64,000 bases of DNA, taken from Dehalococcoidia bacterium (GTDB lineage: Bacteria > Chloroflexota > Dehalococcoidia > Bin125). The stretch spans positions 937,619 through 1,001,618 of the forward strand of contig OZ242037.1 of assembly GCA_965205165.1 (NCBI GenBank), read 5' to 3'. Of the stretch, positions 16,076 through 39,072 are shown in pieces (position 1 is the stretch's first letter; the number at the start of each line of letters is the position of its first letter). The notes under the pieces are model-generated. The model had not been told where the DNA came from, did no database searches, and saw only the letters and a program-made list of their open reading frames with translations. The translations under genes were made by a program, and so were the position numbers.

Positions 16076-16840
16076 ATGGCGATAGTCGACCTGACGCTCG
16101 GACTCGAAGGCGATCCCCCGCCGGAGGTTTACGTGCGCGCAGCGCAGTGCCTCGACGAACTCGCGTCTGCACTCGCCGCCGAACAATCGTCCGTGCAGGC
16201 GGCGGTTTGGCACATGTCCGGCGCAGGGACGGGGCGCGGCGCGGTCAGCATCGCCGGCGAGTGCGCCAGCGACGAGCTGGCCGACGGGATTGCTCGCCGC
16301 TACTTGGCGATCGGGCGGATCCTTGCCCGCCAAGCGGCGGCGGAATGCTCCGAGCCTGTCCGCGGCACCGCTTCGGCGATGGCGCAACTGCTTCAAGGCG
16401 GGGTGGCGGCATTGCGCTTCGAAACCGCCTCCGGAACGGAATGGGCACCGCGGCCGATGCCTGAACCCCGCGAGGTTCCGGAGTGCGTGACCGGCTGGCG
16501 GGCGGCGCAAGCTGCACCGGTCGGCGTCCGCTTCGCCGTGCTCGACGAAATCTCCAGCCAGTCCGTCTCCTGCTATCTCGATCAACCCGACCAGCACCTG
16601 CATGAAGCGCTTCGCGACAGGCGCGTCACGGTGCACGGGCTGGTCACCTACCAGGCGAACGGCGAGTGCGCCGCCGTGGTGCGGGCGATCACGAAAATCG
16701 AACTCGATCTGAGCGCCCAAGACGACGCTTGGGGGCAATCCATGCAGATCGGCGCGGGAACGCCCGCCGGCCCCGGCTCCGTCACTTGGTTCCTCGAGGA
16801 GCGCGAACGCGCCAGGGAACGGTTCTGGCGTGAACGGTGA
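16076..16840 (+). CDS. hypothetical protein (254 aa), translationally coupled to the downstream PIN gene
   Basis: ATG preceded by gaggg. Third-position GC is coding-like. It ends (…WFLEERERARERFWRER*) 11 nt inside the PIN gene start. The antisense track ORF 15941..16738 is Arg-rich junk. Confidence 0.55.
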   Translation: MAIVDLTLGLEGDPPPEVYVRAAQCLDELASALAAEQSSVQAAVWHMSGAGTGRGAVSIAGECASDELADGIARRYLAIGRILARQAAAECSEPVRGTASAMAQLLQGGVAALRFETASGTEWAPRPMPEPREVPECVTGWRAAQAAPVGVRFAVLDEISSQSVSCYLDQPDQHLHEALRDRRVTVHGLVTYQANGECAAVVRAITKIELDLSAQDDAWGQSMQIGAGTPAGPGSVTWFLEERERARERFWRER

Positions 16841-17303
16841 GTCCTTCGACTATTGGGACGCATCGGTGTTCATCCACCGGGCCAGCGCCAATCCCGATCA
16901 TCTCCCCGCAATCGAGCGGACATTGGGGCGTTACGCGCCCGGCGAGCGCCGCATCGCCACATCGGCACTGACCCTCGCGGAGGTCGCGTTCACTGCCTCG
17001 GAGATCGTGCGCGGCGCGCGCAACGAAGTCACATTCGCGCCCTCCGCCGAACAGGAGCAGCGGATCGAGCGGATGCTGTCCAACGCCGCGGAAGTCCGCA
17101 TCGTCCCGCTCGATGAGGAGATCGGACGCCGCGCCCGCGCACTCGTCCGACTCGCGCTTAGCGAAAGCCGCCGCCTCGATCCTCCCGACGCGGTCCACCT
17201 GGCCACTGCAGAGGCGGTCGGAGCAACCGCCGTCTATACCTACGACGGCAAGTGGGCGGCTTGGGCGCGAACGCTCAACGTGAAGATCGGGAGGCCGGAG
17301 TAA
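16830..17303 (+). CDS. PIN-domain ribonuclease (VapC-like toxin)
   Basis: GTG start. The four acidic PIN residues are present: DASVFI, LAEV, DAVHLATA, TYDG. Its 3' end overlaps the TPK 3' end convergently by 29 nt. Confidence 0.75.
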   Translation: MNGESFDYWDASVFIHRASANPDHLPAIERTLGRYAPGERRIATSALTLAEVAFTASEIVRGARNEVTFAPSAEQEQRIERMLSNAAEVRIVPLDEEIGRRARALVRLALSESRRLDPPDAVHLATAEAVGATAVYTYDGKWAAWARTLNVKIGRPE

Positions 17304-30600: not shown

Positions 30601-31232
30601 ATGCGCATCGCCGTCTTCATCGACTACCAAAACGTGTACCATGCTGCGCGTCGAGCGTTTCACAATCCGAACGCTGCTCCATCGTCCGGCCAGATATCTC
30701 CGCGGAAGCTTGCGGAATTGCTGCGGCTCAAGCGGAACGGCGACGACGACCTCGTTCAAGGGGATTCCGATCAAGTCCGTGTCTATCGCGGCATGCCGCG
30801 ACTTAATGACCGAGGCTATGGGCCGGCGCTCCGGCAGATCGGGCTTGGCGCGCTGATGGCGTCACGGTAGTCACCAGGCCGTTGAGCGGCCCGTCAGTTG
30901 CGCCGCGGGAGAAGGGGATCGACATTTCCTTGGCCTTGGACTTCTTCGAGGGCGCGAGCATCGGGGCGTTTGATTTGGGTATCCTCTGTTCGGTGGACAG
31001 CGATTTCGAGCCGCTGATCGAGCGGGTTCAAGATCCGCAAAGAGCGTTCAGCGGCACCGTGGAGACGGCCGCATGGTGGGCTCCGCCGCGACAGGTTTTG
31101 CAGCTGGGCGGCGGTTCGGGCGCTCGGTGCAATCTCTTGACCAAGGCGGACTACGACATAGTGCGCGACCGAACCAACTATGGAATTCCCGCCCGCACTC
31201 GAAGGAGGCGGCGGCGAAATCGGGGCCGATGA
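30601..31232 (+). pseudogene. NYN-domain (LabA-like) predicted RNase, split by a stop/frameshift into 30601..30870 and 30882..31232
   Basis: Part 1 MRIAVFIDYQNVYHAARRAF... is the NYN N-terminal motif. Part 2 ...EKGIDISLALDFFEGA...ILCSVDSDFEPLIERVQD is the NYN central and C-terminal motifs. The two parts lie in different frames, separated by TAG. Local GC is noticeably lower than the surroundings. Confidence 0.6.
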
Positions 31233-31239
31233 TTAGCAG

Positions 31240-32001
31240 CTACAGGGTTGCGCCGCCGTCTACGGTGATGGTTTGGCCGGTTACGAAGGAGTTGCGTTCG
31301 ATTAGGGCTACTATTGCGTCGGCGCAGAGTTGGGGGGTGGCTACGCCTTGGAGGGGGGCGGTTTGTTCCAGGCGGGCGATGCCGGCCAGGTAGGTTTCCT
31401 CGCCGAGGCCGCCTTTGAGCCAGCGGCCTTCGATGAAGCCGGGGGCGATGGTGTTGATGCGGATTTCGGGGCCGAGGACCCGGGCGAGGCTCTTGGTGAT
31501 GATGTTGATGCCGGCCTTGCTGGCGGCGTAGGGGATGCTGCTGCCGCCGCCGCCGATGCCGGCGACGGAGCTGACGTTGACGATCGCGCCCTCGCCGGCG
31601 GCCTTCATGTGCGGGGCGGCGGCGCGGCTGCAGTTGAAGGTGCCGCGCAGGTTGGCGCCGAGGATTTCGTCCCAGACTTCGTCGGTGACGGCTTCGAGGT
31701 CTTCGTGGGCGATGAAGCGGGTCATGCCGGCGTTGTTGACGAGGATCTGGAGCGCGCCGAATTCGTCGACGGCGGATTGGATCAGGCGGCGGCAGTCGGC
31801 GTCGCTGCGGACATCGGCTTGGACGGCGATGGCGCGGCCGCCGGCGGCGCGGATGCGTTCGACGATCTCGTTGGCGGCGGCTTCGCCGCGGTTGTAGTTG
31901 ACGACGACGGCCGCGCCGAGGCCGGCGAGGAGTTCGGCTGCGGCTTCGCCGACGCCGGATGAGGAGCCGGTGACGACGGCGACCTTGCCCGCGATGTCCA
32001 T
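31240..32001 (-). CDS. SDR-family oxidoreductase (FabG-like 3-oxoacyl-ACP reductase)
   Basis: MDIAGKVAVVTGSSSGVGEA (TGxxxGxG) ... NNAG ... YAASKAG. Start at the internal ATG. Confidence 0.85.
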   Translation of the reverse strand: MDIAGKVAVVTGSSSGVGEAAAELLAGLGAAVVVNYNRGEAAANEIVERIRAAGGRAIAVQADVRSDADCRRLIQSAVDEFGALQILVNNAGMTRFIAHEDLEAVTDEVWDEILGANLRGTFNCSRAAAPHMKAAGEGAIVNVSSVAGIGGGGSSIPYAASKAGINIITKSLARVLGPEIRINTIAPGFIEGRWLKGGLGEETYLAGIARLEQTAPLQGVATPQLCADAIVALIERNSFVTGQTITVDGGATL

Positions 32002-32094
32002 GTCCGGCTCCCGTCCCGTTCTCGCGCCGGTCGTTCCGGCGCTTCGGCGGGGCACAGGATAGGGGCGGGCCGTCGATCTGCGACCGGCCCGGGG

Positions 32095-32280
32095 TTATTC
32101 GGAGGCGGGGCGGAGGGAGAGGCGCTGCTCGGTGCGGCAGCGGCGGCAGCGCCAGCGGATGTTGACGCGGCCGTTGGGCGGGCGTTCGAGTTCGCAGGCG
32201 AGTGCGCCCTCGCCGTGGCGCTGGCTGGGGCAGCCGGGGTTCTGGCAGCGGATCTGCTGGCGGATCATCTGCTTCGGCAT
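32095..32280 (-). CDS. small zinc-ribbon protein (62 aa, CxxxxC...CxxC)
   Basis: MPKQMIRQQIRCQNPGCPSQRHGEGALACELERPPNGRVNIRWRCRRCRTEQRLSLRPASE. It sits inside and in frame with the tail of junk track ORF 32095..33696, 66 nt downstream of the 638-aa gene. Confidence 0.5.
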   Translation of the reverse strand: MPKQMIRQQIRCQNPGCPSQRHGEGALACELERPPNGRVNIRWRCRRCRTEQRLSLRPASE

Positions 32281-32345
32281 TGCGGGCTCCTTCGGGTGCG
32301 GGCATGGCGCGGGCCGCAGGTTCCGGGTTTCGGCTTCGGGGCGGC

Positions 32346-34259
32346 TCAGACGGAGCCTCGGGGAACGTTGAGTTCGCCAAGGTCGGAGAGTTCGGGGCTC
32401 AGGGGCGCGACGACGGAGCGGGGCGCGGAGGTGTTCGGAGCGGCCCCCGCGGCGGCGAGTTCGCGGTCGAGGCGGGCCTGTTCGAGCAGCCAGCGACGAT
32501 GGCGGGCGATGGCGGCCTCCGGGTGCTCGTCGCCGATGTACTGCTCGATGTAGCCGCGCTGGTCGAGCGGGTCCAAGGGGTCGTTGAGGCGGGCGCGGCC
32601 GTGTTCCTGTATGGCGATGCGCTGGGCCTGGCTGTAGGGGTCGATGCGGACGTCGATGTCGAGCGAGGGGATGCGGGCGGGGTCGACGCCGACGATGGTG
32701 TCGCGCAGGACGCGGCCCTCGCGGGTGCAGGCGAAGACCCAGACGGGCTCGCCGAAGCCGCCGAGCGGGGCGGGCTTGGACATGACCATGGCCATGTTGC
32801 GGAGCATGATGCGGGCGGCGCGGGCCTGCTGGCGCTTGAGGTGCTGGACTTGGGAGTTGCGCGCGGAGAGGAGCAGGTTGAGGGTGTGGGGCTGCGTGTT
32901 GGGGCCGGCTTCGCCGCGCAGGATCGCGCCGGTGTCGGGAGCGGCGGCGGCGAGGTCCTCGTTGGCGAGGCGGAGGAATTCGATGAAGGCGGGGTCGAAG
33001 GGGAATTCGACCTTTTCGAGCGATGCGCCGGCGGGGAGGTTGCGCGCGGCCGCAGCGGAGGCGGTGAGTTCGACGCGGGTGCCGCCTTCGGCATCGGTCT
33101 CGTAGCCGCCTTCGGCGAGGCGGATCCAGTAGAGCGGGACGGCGGCCTGCTCGGCGATGACGCGGGCGAGGGAGCGGTCGTAGTCGAAGGTCGGCTTGAC
33201 GCGGTAGACGCCCTCGAGCAGCGGCTCCCAGCGGCGGACGGGGTCGGGATGATCGTTGACGTCGGAGGGGGCGAGGGCGAAGGGCGGCATTTCGTAGGGG
33301 TGGCCGTGGGACTTGACGAGCGTCCAGCCGCCGGCGGCGGGGGCGGCGAGTTCGTAGTAGCGGGAGCGGGTCCAGACGGAGGCGACGCGGACGCGGTCTC
33401 CCCAGCCCGCGGCGGACGGGTCGCCTGCGACGGGGGCGTCGCCGGGCTCGGCGAGTTGGAGGCGGGGGCGGCCGCGTTCGCGGCCGAGGGCGAGCCGGAG
33501 GCGATCCTGGCGGGCGAGGGCGGCTTGGTAATCGGAGAGGGCGACCTCGCGGAGAACGAGCGCGACGCCGATGCCGTTGGGCGCGAGGCGGTCTTCGATG
33601 AAGGCGAACTGGTCGGGGCGGACGACTTCGATGCGCCAGGGGAAGCCGGCTTCGGCCTTGCGGCGGCGGTCGCGCTCGCGGCGGCTGCCGGCGCATTCGA
33701 CGAGGCGGCCGCGCTGGTCACGGAAGCGTCGGCGCTCGTCGGGATCGGAGGGGGCGCGGCTGCGGGTTTCGGGCTGCGGGAAGGGCGGCAGCCGATCGAA
33801 GGCGCGCTGCCAGTGGAGGACGCCGTAGCAGAGGCAGACTTGGCCGTAGGCGAGTTCGCCTTGGATGCCGGCGCCGGAGCGCTCGTCGGCGAGGACGAGG
33901 CCGTGCTCGAAGACCTGTTCGAGGTCGTTGGCGGCGGCGCGGGCCCGCTCGGAGTCGTTGGGCGGTTCGACATGGACGCGGAGCGGGTGCTCGCGCAGGC
34001 GGACGCGGAGTTCGGACCAGGCGCGGCGGGCGGCGTCGGTCTGCCAGCCGCCGAAGTCCTCGAAGGGTTCGGGCAGGCGCGGGTCGGCGGAGGGCGAGTT
34101 GAAGAGGTGCTGCTCGCGGGCGCGGATGCGCTGGTGGAGGGGGCCGAAGCGGGAGCCGGCGGGGGATGCGCCGCCGGCGAGTCGGTCGATCAGCGCGGTC
34201 AGCTGGTCGAGGCTCATGGGCGGTTCGGCGGCGGTGCGGGCTTTGGTGCTCGGCATCAT
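32346..34259 (-). CDS. large hypothetical protein (~638 aa), no recognisable domain
   Basis: Long ORF with a coding-like composition that is not Arg/Pro junk. AGGAG RBS upstream of the ATG at 34259. The overlapping same-strand off-frame ORFs 32095..33696 and 32399..33973 are low-complexity artefacts. Confidence 0.6.
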   Translation of the reverse strand: MMPSTKARTAAEPPMSLDQLTALIDRLAGGASPAGSRFGPLHQRIRAREQHLFNSPSADPRLPEPFEDFGGWQTDAARRAWSELRVRLREHPLRVHVEPPNDSERARAAANDLEQVFEHGLVLADERSGAGIQGELAYGQVCLCYGVLHWQRAFDRLPPFPQPETRSRAPSDPDERRRFRDQRGRLVECAGSRRERDRRRKAEAGFPWRIEVVRPDQFAFIEDRLAPNGIGVALVLREVALSDYQAALARQDRLRLALGRERGRPRLQLAEPGDAPVAGDPSAAGWGDRVRVASVWTRSRYYELAAPAAGGWTLVKSHGHPYEMPPFALAPSDVNDHPDPVRRWEPLLEGVYRVKPTFDYDRSLARVIAEQAAVPLYWIRLAEGGYETDAEGGTRVELTASAAAARNLPAGASLEKVEFPFDPAFIEFLRLANEDLAAAAPDTGAILRGEAGPNTQPHTLNLLLSARNSQVQHLKRQQARAARIMLRNMAMVMSKPAPLGGFGEPVWVFACTREGRVLRDTIVGVDPARIPSLDIDVRIDPYSQAQRIAIQEHGRARLNDPLDPLDQRGYIEQYIGDEHPEAAIARHRRWLLEQARLDRELAAAGAAPNTSAPRSVVAPLSPELSDLGELNVPRGSV

Positions 34260-34518
34260 TCGGACTCCTGGCTGCGGGCGGCGCGCGAACATATGCCGAC
34301 CTGCCCGCTTTGTCAAACTGATGTTCTATGTGATGGGGCGGCTGTGGAATGCGGGGATAACGGGGACGGCGGCCCATTGGAGCGGGGCGGAGGCCGGCGC
34401 GGCGGCGATCGCGCCGCGACCCTGCGGGGAGCGGGATGCGCTGTACCATTAAGGCGCTGAAAGCGAAGGAGCGGCTGGCCTTGCGGGCCGCCGCGGTGCC
34501 GGTGAAGTTGGATGGCTG

Positions 34519-35535
34519 ATGGAATCTGAAGCGGGCGCGGCCCTGCAGGGCGCGCAGGCGGGCGAGGATCAATTCACCCTGCTCTTCCCGGGGCAGGGGT
34601 CGCAGTCGATCGGGATGGCGGGCAAGATCCTCGAGGTCGAGCCGGGCGCGGGGCAGTGGTTCGAGCGGGCCAACGAGGTGCTGGACTACGACCTGCTCAG
34701 GATCATCGAAGAGGGGCCGGAGGAGACGCTGAACGACACGGAGCACTCGCAGCCGGCGATTTTCGTGGCGAGCGCGGCGTGGCTGCACGCGCTGAGCGAG
34801 CGCTGGGCGGCGGCGGGGCGGCGGTTCGCGCCGGCGGCGGTGGCGGGGCACTCGATGGGGCAGATCACGGCCGCGTTTTCGGCGCGGGCGATCGGGTTCG
34901 ACGAGGCGCTGGAGCTGGTGCGGCGGCGGGGCGAGGTGATGCGGGACGCGGACTCGCTGCGGCCGGGCGGGATGGCGTCGATCATCGGGCTGCGCGATCG
35001 GGTGCTGCGGCGGCTGGTGGGCGAGGCGGCGGAGGAGGGCACGATCGTGGTGGCCAATGACAACTGCCCGGGGCAGACGGTGGTGTCGGGCGACGAGGCG
35101 CCGCTGCGGCGGCTGATGCGGATGGCGGAGGAGCACGGGGCGCGGCGGGTGGTGCGGCTGCCGATCTCGATCGCGTCGCATTCGCCGCTGATGAGCGGGG
35201 CGCAATCGCAGTTCCAGCACGCGGTCGACGCGATCAAGTGGGGCGAGCCGCAGGTGCCGGTGGCGAGCAACATCAGCGGCGGGCTGATTCATTCGGGCGC
35301 GCAGCTGCGGTCGGAGATCGCGGGGGCACTGACCGCGCCGGTGCAATGGCAGTCGGCGGTGAAGACGATGGCGGGGAACGGGGCGACGCTGTTCGTGGAG
35401 GCGGGCCCGGGCGACGTGCTCTCGAAGCTGGTGCGGCGGATCGCCCGCAGCGCCTGGACGTTCCCGGTCTCGGACGAGGACGCGGGGCTGCGGACGCGGG
35501 ACTATCCGGACCAGAGCGACGGCATCCCCAAGTGA
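34519..35535 (+). CDS. fabD: ACP S-malonyltransferase
   Basis: GQGSQ and GHSMGQ motifs. 338 aa. Confidence 0.9.
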   Translation: MESEAGAALQGAQAGEDQFTLLFPGQGSQSIGMAGKILEVEPGAGQWFERANEVLDYDLLRIIEEGPEETLNDTEHSQPAIFVASAAWLHALSERWAAAGRRFAPAAVAGHSMGQITAAFSARAIGFDEALELVRRRGEVMRDADSLRPGGMASIIGLRDRVLRRLVGEAAEEGTIVVANDNCPGQTVVSGDEAPLRRLMRMAEEHGARRVVRLPISIASHSPLMSGAQSQFQHAVDAIKWGEPQVPVASNISGGLIHSGAQLRSEIAGALTAPVQWQSAVKTMAGNGATLFVEAGPGDVLSKLVRRIARSAWTFPVSDEDAGLRTRDYPDQSDGIPK

Positions 35536-36788
35536 ACTCGGGCCGGCGCGTGGTGATCACGGGGATGGGCGCGGTCACGCCCGTCGGCAACGACTTGGAG
35601 TCGACTTGGGCGGCGCTGGTCGGCGGGGAGAGCGGGGTGTCGCGGCTGGACCGCTTCGACCCGTCGGAGTTCAATTTCAAGACGCCGCTGGCGGCTCAGG
35701 TTCGGGATTGGGACGCGGAGGCGGCGCTGCCGGACGCGAAGGCGCTGCGGCACATGGATTTGAACACGCAGTACGGCGTGACGGCGGGGCTGGAGGCGCT
35801 GGCGGATTCGGGGCTGGAGATCGACGAGGACAACCGCAACCGCGTCGGGGTGATCTTCGGTTCGGGCGGGGGCGGGATGGAGCTGGTGATCAACTGGCAG
35901 GCGACGCTGGAGGAGCGCGGGGCGCGGCGGGTCTCGCCGTTCGCGATGCCGAACCTGATCGCGGACGCGGCGAGCGGGCACCTGGCCATCCAGTCCGGCG
36001 CGGCGGGGCCCAACTATTCGCCGACCAGCGCCTGCGCGACGGGGGCGAACGCGGTCGCGGACGGGATGCTGCACATCCAAGCGGGGCGGGCGGACGCGCT
36101 GATCGTGGGGGGCAGCGAGGCGATCATCCTGCCGTTGTTCCACGCCTGCTTCGAGCGGATGGGGGTGCTGGCGCAGCCGGCGGAGCCGGTCTCCGAGTCC
36201 TGCCGGCCGTACGACCTGCACCGCAGCGGGTTCGTGCCGGGCGAGGGGGCGGCGGCGCTGCTGATCGAGGAGCTGGAATCGGCGCGGGCGCGGGGGGCGC
36301 GGATCTACGCGGAGGTGGCCGGCGGGGGCAGCGCCAACGACGCGCACGACATGGCGCAGCCGGAGGGCCACGGGCGCGGGATCATCAGCGCGGTGGAGCA
36401 GGCGATGGGCGAATCGGGGCTGGCGCCGGAGCAGGTCGGCTACGTGAACACGCACGGGACGGCGACCAAGCTGGGCGATCGGGTGGAGACGGCGGCGCTC
36501 AAGCGGCTGTTCCCGGAGCACGCCCAGCGCTTGGCGATCTCGTCGATCAAGCCGGCGACGGGGCACATGATGGGGGCGTCGGGCGCGCTGGAGGTGATCG
36601 CCTGCGCGATGGCGCTGCGGGAGGGGATCGCGCCGCCGACGCTCAACTACGAGATGCCGGATCCGGACTGCGACCTGGACTACGTGCCGAATCGGGCGCG
36701 GGAGTTCGAGGGCGATGCGGCGCTGTCGCTCTCGGTCGGGCTGGGCGGGCACAACGCAGCGGTGCTGCTGCGCCGCTGGGACGAATGA
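35532..36788 (+). CDS. beta-ketoacyl-ACP synthase II (KasA/FabF-like), copy 1
   Basis: GTG start overlaps the fabD stop. VVITGMGAVTPVGN ... active-site Cys (SPTSACATG) ... HGTATKLGD ... GHMMGASG. Confidence 0.9.
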   Translation: MNSGRRVVITGMGAVTPVGNDLESTWAALVGGESGVSRLDRFDPSEFNFKTPLAAQVRDWDAEAALPDAKALRHMDLNTQYGVTAGLEALADSGLEIDEDNRNRVGVIFGSGGGGMELVINWQATLEERGARRVSPFAMPNLIADAASGHLAIQSGAAGPNYSPTSACATGANAVADGMLHIQAGRADALIVGGSEAIILPLFHACFERMGVLAQPAEPVSESCRPYDLHRSGFVPGEGAAALLIEELESARARGARIYAEVAGGGSANDAHDMAQPEGHGRGIISAVEQAMGESGLAPEQVGYVNTHGTATKLGDRVETAALKRLFPEHAQRLAISSIKPATGHMMGASGALEVIACAMALREGIAPPTLNYEMPDPDCDLDYVPNRAREFEGDAALSLSVGLGGHNAAVLLRRWDE

Positions 36789-36795
36789 CGGCGGC

Positions 36796-38052
36796 GTGAG
36801 GGAGGCGGACCCGGCGCGGCGCGCGGTGATCACCGGGATCGGCCCCGTGACCCCGATCGGAACGGGGGTCGAGGCGTTCTGGCAATCGCTGAGCGAGGGG
36901 CGATCGGGCGCGCGGCGGGTGCCGCTGCTGGCCGAGGCCGGCCTCAAGACGCAGATCGCGTGCGACATTCCGGATTTCGAGCCGGCCGACTACATGGACC
37001 CGAAGGACGCGAAGCGGATGGCCCGCTTCGCGCAGCTGGCGGTCGCGGCCGCACGCCTGGCAGCGGCGGACGCAGGGCTGGATGCGGCGGATCTGGCCTC
37101 CGATCGCGCGGCGGCGGTGGTGAACACGGGCGGGGGCGGGGTGACTACGATCGCGGATCAGACGGAAGTGCTGGGGTCGCGCGGGCCGGCGCGGGTGAGC
37201 CCGTTCTTCGTGCCGATGATGGCGGCGAACATGGCCTCGTGCCAGGTCTCGATCCAGCTGGGCATGCGCGGGCCCGCGATCACCTCGCTGGCCGCCTGCG
37301 CTTCCTCGATCTACGCCTTCATCGACGCCCGGCAGATGCTGCTGGACGGGGAGGCCGAGCTGGTGCTGGCGGGCGGCACGGAATCGAACGTGTCGGTGCT
37401 GGGGATCGCGGGGCTGGCCAACATGCACGCGCTGTCGCGGCGGAACGAGGAGCCGGAACGGGCGTCGCGCCCGTTCGACGCGGAGCGGGACGGGTTCGTG
37501 TTCGGCGAGGGGGCGGTGGTCTGCGCGGTCGAGACGCTGGAGCGGGCGCGGGCGCGCGGGGCGAGGGTCTACGCCGAAGTGCTGGGCGGGGGTCGGACGG
37601 CCGACGCGCACCACATCACGGCGCCGGATCCGTCGGGCGACGGGATGGCGCGGGCGATGAGCGCGGCGCTGCGGCACGCGGGGCTGAACGCGGAAGACGT
37701 GGGCTACATCAGCGCGCACGGCACCTCGACGCCGATCAACGATCGAGTGGAGACGAGCGCGATCCGGCAGGTCTTCGGCGGGCGCGCGGACGAGCTGGCG
37801 GTCAGTTCGACCAAGAGCATGACGGGGCATTTGATGGGCGCGGCGGGGGCGTTGTCGGGCGCGGCCACGGCCCTGGCGATCCACCGCGGGGCGCTGCCGC
37901 CGACGATCAACTTGGAGACGCCGGACCCCGATTGCGACTTGGACTACGTGCCCAACGAGGCGCGGGAGGCGGAGATCGCGGCGGCGCTGGTCAACGGCTT
38001 CGGCTTCGGCGGGCAGAACGGGGTCGTCGCGCTGGGGCGCGCCAGCGGGTAA
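36796..38052 (+). CDS. beta-ketoacyl-ACP synthase II (KasB/FabF-like), copy 2
   Basis: GTG start. AVITGIGPVTPIG ... SLAACASS ... HGTSTPIND ... GHLMGAAG. Confidence 0.9.
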   Translation: MREADPARRAVITGIGPVTPIGTGVEAFWQSLSEGRSGARRVPLLAEAGLKTQIACDIPDFEPADYMDPKDAKRMARFAQLAVAAARLAAADAGLDAADLASDRAAAVVNTGGGGVTTIADQTEVLGSRGPARVSPFFVPMMAANMASCQVSIQLGMRGPAITSLAACASSIYAFIDARQMLLDGEAELVLAGGTESNVSVLGIAGLANMHALSRRNEEPERASRPFDAERDGFVFGEGAVVCAVETLERARARGARVYAEVLGGGRTADAHHITAPDPSGDGMARAMSAALRHAGLNAEDVGYISAHGTSTPINDRVETSAIRQVFGGRADELAVSSTKSMTGHLMGAAGALSGAATALAIHRGALPPTINLETPDPDCDLDYVPNEAREAEIAAALVNGFGFGGQNGVVALGRASG

Positions 38053-38093
38053 GCTCGCGCCCAACGCGGCCCGGATCCGCCTTGGGAGCCGAC

Positions 38094-38348
38094 ATGAGCA
38101 ACTTGCAGGAGCGCCTCTGCGCGCTGGTCGCGGACCAGCTGCGCCAGCCGGTCGAGAAGGTCACCCCGGAGGCGAACCTGATCGAGGACTTGGACGCCGA
38201 TTCGCTCGACATCGTCGACCTGACCATCGCGGTCGAGGAGGAGTTCTCGACGGACGAGATCGAGCTGGAGATCCCCGAAGAGGACGCGGCCGACATCCGG
38301 ACCGTCCAGGACCTGCTCGACTACCTGGCCGAGCGCGGGATCAGCTGA
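38094..38348 (+). CDS. acpP: acyl carrier protein
   Basis: MSNLQERLCALVADQL...DLDADSLDIVDL contains the phosphopantetheine-attachment Ser (DSLD). 85 aa. Confidence 0.85.
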   Translation: MSNLQERLCALVADQLRQPVEKVTPEANLIEDLDADSLDIVDLTIAVEEEFSTDEIELEIPEEDAADIRTVQDLLDYLAERGIS

Positions 38349-38354
38349 GGCGGC

Positions 38355-38651
38355 ATGCCGCTCCAGCGGATCCGGGCCCGCGCCTTCGAGCAGGCCGCCG
38401 GGGCCGCATCGGAGCTCGCGGCGGAGGCGATCCGCCTGCCCGAAGGCCGCACGCTGCTCAATCGCCAGGCGGAGGCGGCTTCGGCCCTGATCGTCGTGGA
38501 CGGCGCGCTGCGGATCGGGGTGATCGACGACGACGCGGAGCTGGAGCAGGGCGAGGGGGTGCTGCTGCCCAAGGGCGCGACCTACTCGGTGCGCGCCTCG
38601 ACGGACGCGCTGGCGTTCGTCTTCTCGCTGCCGACCGCGGGAGCGGCCTGA
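38355..38651 (+). CDS. small cupin-domain protein
   Basis: 98 aa, beta-rich (ALIVVDGALRIGVID...GATYSVRA). Confidence 0.4.
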   Translation: MPLQRIRARAFEQAAGAASELAAEAIRLPEGRTLLNRQAEAASALIVVDGALRIGVIDDDAELEQGEGVLLPKGATYSVRASTDALAFVFSLPTAGAA

Positions 38652-38664
38652 CGGCGCGGGCGGG

Positions 38665-39072
38665 TCAGAGCGCGCCCAAGTCCGCCAGTTCCGGCTCGCC
38701 GTCCAAGGTCGTCGAGAAGACGAACGGTCGGGGCTGGCCCGCATCGATCTCCCGTAGCCAATCCCAGCGCTGCATGAGGAACTGCAGCACCTCGAAGTTC
38801 GACGGATTGGCGACTTGGAGGACCACCATCCCGACATCGTGCCGGATGAGCTGCTCCAACTCTGGCGGGCTGGAGAGGATCCGGCGGTCCCGCGTCACGG
38901 CCAGCCATCCCGCGCCGCCCACTGCCGCGAGCCACTCTTCGTCGGTCACCGTCCGCCCGGTTCGCAGCGTTTCGGGAAAGAGCGTGAAGACGTTCGCAAC
39001 ATCGCGGATGCCGAGGCTGAACAGCGCGAGCGCGATTCGGTGCGAGATGTTCTGGTCCAAGAACAACTTCAT
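38665..39072 (-). CDS. DUF5615-family PIN-like nuclease (putative toxin)
   Basis: MKLFLDQNISHRIALALFSLG... is the characteristic N-terminus of Mut7-C/PIN-like DUF5615. 4-nt overlap with the upstream DUF433 gene. Confidence 0.6.
   Translation of the reverse strand: MKLFLDQNISHRIALALFSLGIRDVANVFTLFPETLRTGRTVTDEEWLAAVGGAGWLAVTRDRRILSSPPELEQLIRHDVGMVVLQVANPSNFEVLQFLMQRWDWLREIDAGQPRPFVFSTTLDGEPELADLGAL

What the first reader, a model, noticed from the sequence alone, without database searches (positions are those of the whole stretch)
32095..34518. Orphan 638-aa protein of unknown function plus 62-aa zinc-ribbon protein, divergently transcribed from the fab operon
A long ORF with a coding-like composition and a proper RBS, but no motif I can assign to any family. 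It has no Walker motifs, no obvious TM segments and no catalytic signatures. It is followed 66 nt later on the same strand by a small four-Cys zinc-ribbon gene that the ORF track misses. The zinc-ribbon gene is hidden inside a junk ORF. The pair shares a ~200-bp AT-richer divergent promoter region (ttgtcaaactgatgttctatgtgatgg) with fabD. Large uncharacterised protein plus Zn-ribbon pairs are a recurring layout in uncharacterised conflict or regulatory systems.
Basis: seen in the sequence. Interest (0 to 1): 0.6.

Follow-up and report, generated by a model that had tools for sequence, protein, structure and literature searches.

The report
Host-kept phage portal gene with zinc-ribbon partner
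The "orphan" 637-aa protein is a tailed-phage portal protein that an ancestor of a group of marine Chloroflexota (Dehalococcoidia) captured once and has kept as an ordinary chromosomal gene ever since, always with a small basic zinc-ribbon gene behind it and no capsid or tail genes nearby, so a piece of a viral DNA-packaging machine seems to have been put to a host use that is still unknown.

Summary
Both ORFs are real. The large CDS is 32346-34259 (minus strand, 637 aa, GC3 0.90). The 4-Cys CDS is 32095-32280 (minus strand, 61 aa), 65 nt downstream.

No Pfam, PHROG, NCBIfam, PADLOC or PDB-sequence match exists. The AlphaFold model (pLDDT 77) nevertheless hits only tailed-phage portal proteins (Foldseek prob 1.00, E down to 1e-15). 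Phage-borne relatives (33-49% identity) sit right after TerL in head modules.

The chromosomal copies (47 GTDB Dehalococcoidia species plus the window) form one clade nested inside phage diversity and are single-copy. Their dN/dS is about 0.10, like neighbouring RecF, DUF885 and DAGK. Their distances track those of the housekeeping neighbours, and 36/48 keep a host-type promoter.

The Zn-ribbon gene follows the portal gene in 48/48 chromosomal loci and in 0/8 phage contigs.

The window has no other phage gene. The flanks are fab, pyrimidine, aaRS and transporter genes. Relatives also carry several solitary, catalytically intact TerL genes.

Verdict: a domesticated portal gene with a lineage-specific partner. 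Identity is firm and function is inferred. The leading guess is that it still acts as a DNA-translocation ring working with the retained terminases.

The parts
32346..34259 (-). CDS for a 637-aa phage portal-fold protein (domesticated portal homolog). The stop codon is 32346-32348. A second in-frame ATG at 34256 is an alternative start.
   Evidence: ORF and translation. GC3 is 0.90. AF2 model has pLDDT 77 and pTM 0.73. All top Foldseek hits are portal proteins: BFVD E=1e-15; PDB hits to N4, SU10, Pa223, Pan3, P22, Sf6, T7 and SPP1 at E=1e-12 to 1e-8. 91 close clusters, 166 clusters in the exhaustive search. dN/dS is 0.098.
32095..32280 (-). CDS for a 61-aa basic (pI 11.0) 4-Cys zinc-ribbon-like protein (Cx4C ... 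CxxC, motifs RCxNPxCPS and W[RK]CRRC). It is the lineage-specific partner of the portal gene. The stop codon is 32095-32097.
   Evidence: Translation. Homolog downstream on the same strand in 47/47 chromosomal loci plus the window, with four invariant Cys, and absent from phage contigs. dN/dS is about 0.10. pI. The AF2 model is moderate only (pLDDT 68.5), with a beta-hairpin carrying CxxC at its turn. No significant fold match. Only a weak PyrI_C Zn-domain hit at E=0.25.
34288..34316 (-). Sigma70-type promoter-like site (TTGACA, 17-nt spacer, TATGTT) about 28 nt upstream of the portal ATG.
   Evidence: Only match in 31000-35000, with 0.1 expected by chance. TTGAC[A/T]-N17/18-CATAAT-type sites lie upstream of the portal gene in 36/48 chromosomal loci. 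GTTTGAC is the invariant non-coding block in the upstream alignment of the high-GC subclade.
34265..34269 (-). Shine-Dalgarno site AGGAG, 5 nt before the portal ATG.
   Evidence: Read directly from the sequence. AAGGAG or AGGAG-type sites precede most orthologs.
32287..32292 (-). Shine-Dalgarno site AAGGAG, 6 nt before the Zn-ribbon ATG.
   Evidence: Read directly from the sequence.
32281..32345 (-). 65-nt spacer between the portal and Zn-ribbon genes. No terminator-like site was found, so co-transcription is likely but not shown.
   Evidence: Spacer length varies from 52 to about 450 nt in the orthologous loci, and is 1.7 kb in L043.

Best explanation
The 637-aa protein is a homolog of the tailed-phage portal protein, the dodecameric ring through which DNA is packaged into a capsid. 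An ancestor of a SAR202-like Dehalococcoidia clade captured it once from a high-GC phage lineage. The gene has since been inherited vertically as a single-copy host gene with its own sigma70-type promoter. The 61-aa basic 4-Cys zinc-ribbon protein encoded just downstream is a partner acquired in the bacterial lineage; it is absent from the related phages. All of this is shown here. The function is inferred: the protein most likely still assembles into a ring-shaped DNA channel and works with the terminase-type ATPase-nucleases that the same lineage also retains as isolated, catalytically intact genes. That would make it part of a host-controlled DNA-packaging or DNA-transfer device, either a dispersed GTA-like system or one that borrows capsids from an infecting helper phage. 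The Zn-ribbon protein would serve as a nucleic-acid-binding adaptor or regulator of the ring. Confidence in the identity (domesticated portal plus conserved partner) is about 0.9. Confidence in the packaging-device mechanism is about 0.35-0.4.
For: Portal fold: the AF2 model matches only portal proteins at probability 1.00. Family position in phages: TerS, TerL, portal homolog ... major head protein in L054; TerL then portal in L004, L057 and L058. Single capture: all 48 chromosomal copies are monophyletic and their sisters are phage-borne. Vertical inheritance: 47 GTDB species carry one locus each; synteny with recF, DUF885 and DAGK holds in 36-42 loci; portal distances co-vary with the housekeeping neighbours (Spearman 0.75-0.82, the same as RecF against DUF885). 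Function is maintained: dN/dS is 0.098 for the portal and about 0.10 for the Zn-ribbon, against 0.10-0.19 for neighbouring cellular genes; every copy is a full-length ORF and conservation spans the whole fold. Host control: a conserved sigma70-type promoter and SD site, and GC equal to the surroundings. Partner: the Zn-ribbon gene is present in 48/48 chromosomal loci and 0/8 phage contigs, which instead carry an unrelated ~102-aa gene after the portal gene. It has pI 11.0. Possible motor partners: the chromosomal TerL family has intact Walker A and B motifs and nuclease acidic residues, dN/dS of 0.12, and lies 5.5-8.5 kb from the portal gene in 15/47 loci.
Against: No capsid, scaffold, protease, adaptor or tail gene was seen. 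None lies in the 64-kb window, within 10 kb of the portal gene in 47 genomes, or within 10 kb of five TerL loci. A particle-forming system is therefore unproven. The window itself has no TerL within about 30 kb on either side, and none was seen near the portal gene in its high-GC subclade. In that subclade dN/dS is about 0.5 for the portal gene; a control gene is also inflated to 0.27-0.39 by GC3 bias, but some relaxation is possible. No interaction between the portal, Zn-ribbon and TerL proteins was tested. The Zn-ribbon fold is only modestly supported.
Confidence: 0.45

Rival explanations
1. Anti-phage interference. The host-encoded portal homolog, with the Zn-ribbon protein, would act as a decoy or poison subunit. 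It would co-assemble with, or titrate, the packaging machinery of infecting phages of the related lineage and so block capsid assembly or DNA packaging. The solitary TerL paralogs might act as nucleases.
For: Related phages with portals 43-49% identical exist in high-GC metagenomic contigs and plausibly infect similar hosts. The pair and the TerL units are isolated two-gene modules with their own promoters. Phage satellites are known to interfere with helper assembly (established knowledge of SaPI/PICI biology).
Against: No PADLOC match for any component. dN/dS is about 0.10, with no sign of arms-race evolution. The gene is single-copy in a stable syntenic position across 47 species and co-diverges with housekeeping genes. 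Neighbours are core metabolic genes, not defence islands.
Confidence: 0.17
2. Capsid-independent cellular exaptation. The portal ring, with TerL-type ATPases and the Zn-ribbon protein, would have been recruited as a DNA or nucleoprotein translocation or processing machine that no longer involves any virus-like particle.
For: Only packaging-motor parts are retained near each other or singly: the portal gene and TerS-like/TerL pairs. No shell or tail genes were seen at any of about 53 inspected loci. Constraint is at housekeeping level, and the main-clade position is next to recF.
Against: There is no precedent known to me, and no membrane-anchoring or other new domain is visible in the model. 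The rest of the genomes could not be searched, so capsid genes may simply lie elsewhere. The recF adjacency is lost in the window and in L038.
Confidence: 0.18
3. Decaying prophage remnant, or a piece of an active prophage or satellite, with no host function.
For: The protein is phage-derived. In the main clade a TerL gene lies within 10 kb.
Against: Intact full-length ORFs occur in 47 species, with dN/dS about 0.10. There is no compositional anomaly. There are no flanking att-like repeats and no adjacent tRNA gene, and no integrase family appeared among the genes profiled around the pair. Flanking genes are cellular and differ between subclades while the pair and its promoter persist. Distances track housekeeping genes.
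Confidence: 0.04
4. The portal-fold assignment is a modelling artefact and the protein is an unrelated lineage-specific protein.
For: Sequence identity to known portals is only 9-15%. TM-scores are moderate (0.40-0.54), rmsd values are large, and no sequence profile hits any portal.
Against: Several hundred portal hits and essentially nothing else head both libraries at probability 1.00. Independent genomic evidence agrees: sequence homologs at 33-49% identity occupy the portal slot directly after TerL in five different phage contig types, one with TerS and the major head protein identified. The length (about 640-700 aa) is typical of podovirus-type portals.
Confidence: 0.03

Closest known systems
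Portal proteins of podovirus-type tailed phages (N4, SU10, Pa223, cyanopodophage Pan3, P22/Sf6, T7)
   Same: The predicted fold is the same (Foldseek probability 1.00) and the size is similar. Phage-borne members of this sequence family occupy the canonical position directly downstream of TerL in the head module.
   Different: Identity is only 9-15%, and the protein is not recognised by any Pfam, PHROG, NCBIfam or PDB sequence profile. No relative exists in 50,697 deposited phage genomes. The window copy is chromosomal, single-copy, host-promoter-driven and isolated from all other virion genes.
Gene transfer agents (RcGTA-type domesticated prophages of Alphaproteobacteria; also BaGTA, VSH-1)
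   Same: Phage packaging or structural genes are kept under purifying selection and inherited vertically across a bacterial clade under host control, with no integrase or lysogeny genes. The comparison with GTA biology rests on established knowledge.
   Different: GTAs keep a contiguous head-tail cluster with TerL next to the portal gene, then protease, capsid and tail genes. Here the portal gene stands alone with a Zn-ribbon gene, TerL is either 5.5-8.5 kb away on the opposite strand or not detected, TerL is multi-copy and solitary, and no capsid or tail gene was found in any inspected locus. Particle production is unknown.
Phage satellites that carry packaging genes (PICIs and capsid-forming PICIs)
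   Same: They are small sets of packaging-related genes (TerS, sometimes TerL and portal) residing in a bacterial chromosome. They work with structural proteins supplied by a helper phage (established knowledge).
   Different: Satellites are mobile islands with integrase, replication and regulatory modules and a patchy distribution. This pair has none of these nearby, shows no att repeats and co-diverges with the host.
Small 4-Cys zinc-ribbon proteins (ribosomal Zn-ribbon proteins, the PyrI C-terminal domain, Ogr/Delta-type phage late activators)
   Same: It is a short basic protein with two conserved Cys pairs flanking beta-strands. There is a weak PyrI_C hit at E=0.25.
   Different: No significant sequence or fold match to any of them. 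The Cx4C spacing of the first knuckle and strict linkage to a portal gene are specific to this lineage.

Membership tests
Tailed-phage portal protein (Caudoviricetes portal fold) | Portal fold (wing, stem, clip and crown architecture) | tested here: met
   The AF2 model has pLDDT 77 and pTM 0.73. Foldseek top hits are all portals at probability 1.00, with E=1e-15 in BFVD and 1.7e-12 in PDB.
Tailed-phage portal protein (Caudoviricetes portal fold) | Match to a curated portal sequence family (Pfam, PHROG or NCBIfam) or to a solved portal by sequence | tested here: not met
   Zero families at E<=1 in Pfam, PHROGs and NCBIfam. The 37-sequence profile against PDB sequences gives 0 hits at E<=1. tblastn against deposited phages finds nothing.
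Tailed-phage portal protein (Caudoviricetes portal fold) | Gene located next to the large terminase gene within a head-morphogenesis module | tested here: not met
   This is met for phage-borne relatives (L004, L054-L058). It is not met for the window copy: there is no TerL or head gene in 64 kb and the flanks are cellular.
Tailed-phage portal protein (Caudoviricetes portal fold) | Assembles as a 12-mer ring at a unique capsid vertex and conducts DNA | not testable with these tools
   Needs multimer modelling or biochemistry and cryo-EM.
Gene transfer agent (domesticated prophage producing particles) | Vertical inheritance and purifying selection of phage-derived genes across a host clade | tested here: met
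   The chromosomal clade is monophyletic. There are 47 species. dN/dS is about 0.10. Distances co-vary with housekeeping genes.
Gene transfer agent (domesticated prophage producing particles) | Full complement of head (capsid, protease or scaffold) and tail genes, usually clustered | tested here: not met
   None lies in the window or within 10 kb of the portal gene in 47 loci or of five TerL loci. The rest of the genomes could not be searched.
Gene transfer agent (domesticated prophage producing particles) | Particles that package host DNA | not testable with these tools
   Experimental.
Prophage or prophage remnant or mobile island | Integrase, att repeats, tRNA target, compositional anomaly, gene decay | tested here: not met
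   No flanking repeats beyond chance GC-rich matches. The nearest tRNA is more than 20 kb away. GC equals the surroundings. ORFs are intact with low dN/dS. No integrase domain in the neighbours.
Known anti-phage defence systems (PADLOC-DB) | Match of any component to a defence-system model | tested here: not met
   The portal-like protein, the Zn-ribbon protein, the TerL paralogs and the small acidic proteins all give 0 families at E<=0.01.
Zinc ribbon (4-Cys) | Two conserved Cys pairs (knuckles) | tested here: met
   Cx4C and CxxC are invariant in 48 orthologs.
Zinc ribbon (4-Cys) | Beta-hairpin zinc-ribbon fold or a match to a Zn-ribbon family | tested here: inconclusive
   In the model (pLDDT 68.5) strands 39-44 and 51-56 flank C45/C48. 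No Foldseek hit below E=3; the top non-significant hits are Zn-ribbon ribosomal proteins. Pfam PyrI_C at E=0.25 only. Zinc binding itself is not testable here.

The most novel reading that the evidence does not exclude
A clade of SAR202-like Dehalococcoidia has taken apart a phage DNA-packaging motor. It keeps the parts as separate host genes under housekeeping-level constraint: one portal gene with a new Zn-ribbon partner, and two or three solitary TerS-like/TerL pairs. It keeps no capsid or tail genes of its own. The parts would then form either a capsid-independent DNA-translocation or DNA-processing machine, or a host-encoded packaging system that commandeers the capsids of infecting phages to ship host DNA (a 'helper-dependent GTA').
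Probability: 0.25. Interest if true: 0.9.

Novelty: new variant of a known kind. Interest (0 to 1): 0.62.

Why it matters
Portal proteins are regarded as strictly virion components. The known cases of domestication (GTAs, tailocins, encapsulins) keep whole modules or only the shell protein. Here a lone portal gene is held under purifying selection across at least 47 species. It has a host promoter and a lineage-specific Zn-ribbon partner, and dispersed intact terminase genes accompany it in relatives. That would be a new mode of phage-gene exaptation in an abundant, uncultured marine and sponge-associated lineage. It also gives an annotation (portal fold) to a family that every public record calls 'hypothetical protein'. 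It defines a portal family missing from Pfam, PHROGs and deposited phage genomes. If particles are made, it would be the first hint of GTA-like gene transfer in Chloroflexota. If they are not, it would be a packaging motor repurposed for cellular DNA handling.

Tried and rejected
- Sequence-profile assignment failed. Pfam, PHROGs and NCBIfam gave nothing for either protein. PADLOC gave nothing. The PDB sequence profile gave no hit. tblastn against INPHARED phages found no match.
- The Zn-ribbon fold search found no significant neighbour. The homology search for the Zn-ribbon protein returned only 4 close hits because the word index limits short queries.
- I asked whether the phage gene that follows the portal gene (about 102 aa) is the ancestor of the Zn-ribbon gene. 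It is a conserved Cys-free family with no similarity, so this was rejected.
- I asked whether the recurring 348/412-aa neighbours are capsid-like. They carry DEARH/DESRH diiron motifs and a weak R2-like oxidase hit, so this was rejected.
- I asked whether the adjacent SMC-like ATPase is a dedicated partner. It is RecF (TIGR00611 above its cutoff) and is absent from the window and L038 neighbourhoods, so this was rejected.
- A TerL or TerS-like gene in the window was not found by tblastn or by HMM.
- att-like repeats or a mobile cassette around the pair were not found.
- Literature searches for any description of portal or terminase domestication, or of GTAs, in Dehalococcoidia or Chloroflexi found nothing relevant.
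- A portal plus Zn-ribbon co-fold was considered but not run, because the tool returns no interface metrics.
Full report
**1. The observation**

Both ORFs are present on the minus strand. The large CDS runs from ATG 34259 to stop codon 32346-32348 and encodes 637 aa. Its codon-position GC is 0.77/0.52/0.90, typical of real genes in this 70.8% GC window. An AGGAG site lies 5 nt before the ATG.

The small CDS runs from ATG 32280 to stop codon 32095-32097 and encodes 61 aa. It starts 65 nt after the large one, is preceded by AAGGAG, and contains Cx4C ... CxxC.

The 259-bp divergent region towards the FabD-like gene holds the only sigma70-like promoter match in 4 kb. It is on the minus strand: TTGACA, 17-nt spacer, TATGTT, 10/12 matches, 0.1 expected by chance.

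None of Pfam, PHROGs, NCBIfam or PADLOC recognises either protein.

**2. What the large protein is**

Homology searches find about 90 close clusters at 55-99% identity. All are named 'hypothetical protein' and come from Chloroflexi/Chloroflexota MAGs. An exhaustive HMMER scan of 1.84 billion representatives finds 166 clusters, almost all 650-730 aa.

An AlphaFold2 model built on 37 homologs has pLDDT 77 and pTM 0.73. Foldseek returns essentially only tailed-phage portal proteins at probability 1.00. The best BFVD hit has E=1e-15. The PDB hits are the portals of Pa223, SU10, Pan3, N4, Sf6, P22, T7, 80alpha/SaPI1 and SPP1, at E from 1.7e-12 to 1e-8. Sequence identity to these portals is only 9-15%. 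A profile of the family finds no PDB sequence and no deposited phage genome has a relative. This explains why the protein looked like an orphan.

Genome context independently confirms the assignment.
- The most distant sequence homologs (33-49% identity) lie in phage contigs directly after the large terminase gene.
- In L054 the order is TerS (phrog_4102), TerL (phrog_2), the portal homolog (overlapping TerL by 8 nt), large proteins, then the major head protein (phrog_267).
- L004 has an intein-bearing TerL upstream of the homolog.
- L057 and L058 have TerL followed by the homolog.

**3. The chromosomal lineage**

A scan of one genome per GTDB species finds 47 loci. All are in Dehalococcoidia/Chloroflexota MAGs, one per genome, and many sit on complete chromosomes of about 3 Mb. 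Several bin names and a paper on sponge Chloroflexi point to marine-sponge SAR202-type organisms. The luciferase-like monooxygenases and family-III CoA-transferases in the window and in the related loci fit that placement. The placement is an inference.

- In an NJ tree of 169 family members, the 48 chromosomal copies form one clade with nothing else inside. The clade is nested 12 nodes from the midpoint root, and its sister (P0092/L057) and next relative (L004) are phage-borne. This indicates a single capture.
- In 36-42 of the 47 loci the gene sits in the same neighbourhood: DUF885, arrays of DsbA-like genes, the portal gene, the Zn-ribbon gene, then convergent recF (TIGR00611 at 271 bits against a cutoff of 172), an R2-oxidase-like paralog pair and DAGK.
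- Pairwise portal distances co-vary with those of RecF, DUF885 and DAGK (Spearman 0.75-0.82). That is as strong as RecF against DUF885 (0.76). The portal evolves at about the rate of RecF.
- For pairs with dS of 0.05-0.5, NG86 dN/dS is 0.098 for the portal and about 0.10 for the Zn-ribbon gene. The comparison values are DUF885 0.106, DAGK 0.102, RecF 0.185 and TerL 0.116.
- The window-L038 pair gives 0.53. In that high-GC3 subclade the DUF885 control is also inflated to 0.27-0.39. Part of the excess is therefore compositional, though some relaxation cannot be excluded.
- A sigma70-type promoter (TTGAC[A/T]-N17/18-CATAAT, 9-11 of 12 matches) lies upstream of the gene in 36/48 loci.
- In the window's subclade the -35 block GTTTGAC is the only invariant non-coding element, even though the flanking genes differ.

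**4. The zinc-ribbon partner**

A homolog lies downstream on the same strand in 47/47 chromosomal loci plus the window. The gaps are 52 to about 450 nt, except in L043, where another gene is inserted between the two. Four Cys residues are invariant, within the motifs RCxNPxCPS and W[KR]CRRC.

The partner is absent from all eight phage contigs. Four of them carry instead a conserved Cys-free gene of about 102 aa after the portal gene, which is unrelated to it.

The protein is very basic (pI 11.0; 12 Arg in 61 aa), which makes nucleic-acid binding plausible. That is an inference. The AF2 model is only moderate (pLDDT 68.5), though it places C45/C48 at the turn of a beta-hairpin. No significant fold neighbour was found. 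'Zinc ribbon' is therefore supported by the motif and only weakly by structure.

**5. The window context**

Only the two-gene pair is shared with any other locus, including the closest GTDB relative L038 (75-78% identity), whose flanks are different.

The genes within about 17 kb on either side are all cellular.
- FabD-like acyltransferase, two ketosynthases and an ACP-like ORF.
- An SDR, a frame-split NYN gene and a HIBADH-like dehydrogenase.
- Two aminoacyl-tRNA synthetases and an Opp-type transporter.
- The pyrimidine operon and accB/accC.

There is no TerL or TerS-like gene in the 64 kb. There is no compositional anomaly, no adjacent tRNA gene and no att-like repeats. The pair is an ameliorated, isolated island inside core genes, not a prophage.

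**6. Terminases in relatives**

In 15/47 loci a genuine TerL lies 5.5-8.5 kb from the portal gene. It hits phrog_2 at 8e-31 and Pfam Terminase_3 and Terminase_6N. In 14 of these loci it is on the opposite strand, and it is separated from the portal gene by cellular genes.

Unexpectedly, this TerL family is multi-copy per chromosome, with two or three paralogs at 54-63% identity. The extra copies are solitary. Each has a small gene of 118-134 aa with an acidic tail, and each is wedged between housekeeping genes:
- purB | TerL | purC-purS in L060;
- clpB | TerL | ECH in L059;
- carboxyltransferase | TerL | acyl-CoA dehydrogenase in L062.

Walker A is present in 112/113 paralogs. Walker B (VDEAG) and the nuclease acidic residues are invariant. 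No capsid or tail gene was seen within 10 kb of any of these loci.

**7. Interpretation**

These points are shown:
- the protein is a portal homolog;
- it was captured once from a phage lineage;
- it has been inherited vertically and kept under housekeeping-level purifying selection;
- it has a conserved host-type promoter;
- it is strictly linked to a lineage-specific basic 4-Cys protein.

The function is inferred. The most economical reading is that it still forms a DNA-conducting ring that works with the retained terminase-type motors. That would be a dispersed GTA-like system, or one that depends on a helper phage. The Zn-ribbon protein would act as an adaptor or regulator.

The main weakness is that no capsid or tail genes appear in any inspected region.

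The rivals are:
- assembly-interference defence, which is disfavoured by low dN/dS, stable synteny and no PADLOC match;
- a capsid-independent cellular machine, which is not excluded;
- an inert remnant, which is rejected;
- a fold artefact, which is rejected by the phage-context evidence.

**8. Comparison and novelty**

In fold, and through its phage relatives, the protein is a portal. It fails the sequence-family and gene-context criteria of a canonical virion portal gene.

It resembles GTAs in its evolutionary mode but fails the structural-cluster criterion. It is not a prophage, a satellite or a known defence system.

No paper in the searchable library describes it.

I rate it a new variant of a known kind (phage-gene domestication). 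There is a sizeable chance of something more unusual, namely a packaging motor taken apart and exapted without a capsid.

Noticed in passing
L059 10001-11560; L060 10001-11533; L062 9652-11419; L061 9658-11422 (relatives' chromosomes, not the window): The chromosomal TerL family is multi-copy, with 2-3 paralogs per Dehalococcoidia chromosome. Each copy is a solitary unit with a 118-134-aa acidic-tailed small gene, inserted between housekeeping genes (purB|TerL|purC-purS; clpB|TerL|ECH; carboxyltransferase|TerL|acyl-CoA DH). The ATPase and nuclease motifs are intact and dN/dS is about 0.12.
   Followed up: partly
window 30601-30870 and 30882-31232 (+): A NYN/LabA-like nuclease gene is split across two reading frames and is probably a frameshifted pseudogene. 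Only the second fragment hits Pfam NYN and the PADLOC NYN/HEC-09 models.
   Followed up: partly
L015 4974-8495 (also L021, L043, L007): Tandem arrays (2-4 copies) of a 146-176-aa TM-like protein paired with a 105-137-aa DsbA/thioredoxin-like protein lie between DUF885 and the portal gene in most main-clade loci. Their function is unknown.
   Followed up: no
L021 13568-14614 and 14702-15964 (cluster present in 42/47 loci): A paralogous 348-aa + 412-aa pair next to recF is more than 90% identical across species but has no Pfam family. The 348-aa member has DEARH/DESRH diiron motifs and a weak R2-like ligand-binding oxidase hit. The 412-aa member lacks the ExxH motifs.
   Followed up: partly
L004 1325-3871: The large terminase of the phage contig that carries the 43%-identical portal contains a LAGLIDADG/Hom_end intein (848 aa).
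   Followed up: no
window 34519-38651 (+): The 'fab operon' is a FabD-like acyltransferase followed by two tandem ketosynthases and a 98-aa ORF with no Pfam hit at E<=0.001. A KS/CLF-like (type II PKS-like) arrangement rather than plain FabF cannot be excluded.
   Followed up: no
L043 12051-13277: In one genome a 408-aa gene on the opposite strand is inserted between the portal and Zn-ribbon genes (1.7-kb gap). The two genes therefore need not be co-transcribed.
   Followed up: no
L055 8973-9167: One related phage encodes an unrelated 64-aa CxxC...CxxC protein between TerL and its portal gene. Small Zn-binding proteins near portal genes may be a recurring theme of independent origin.
   Followed up: no
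window 16830-17303 (+) and 38665-39072 (-): Two PIN-domain genes (PIN and PIN_10) lie within about 16 kb of the pair. They are probably toxin-antitoxin-type genes and have no PADLOC match.
   Followed up: partly
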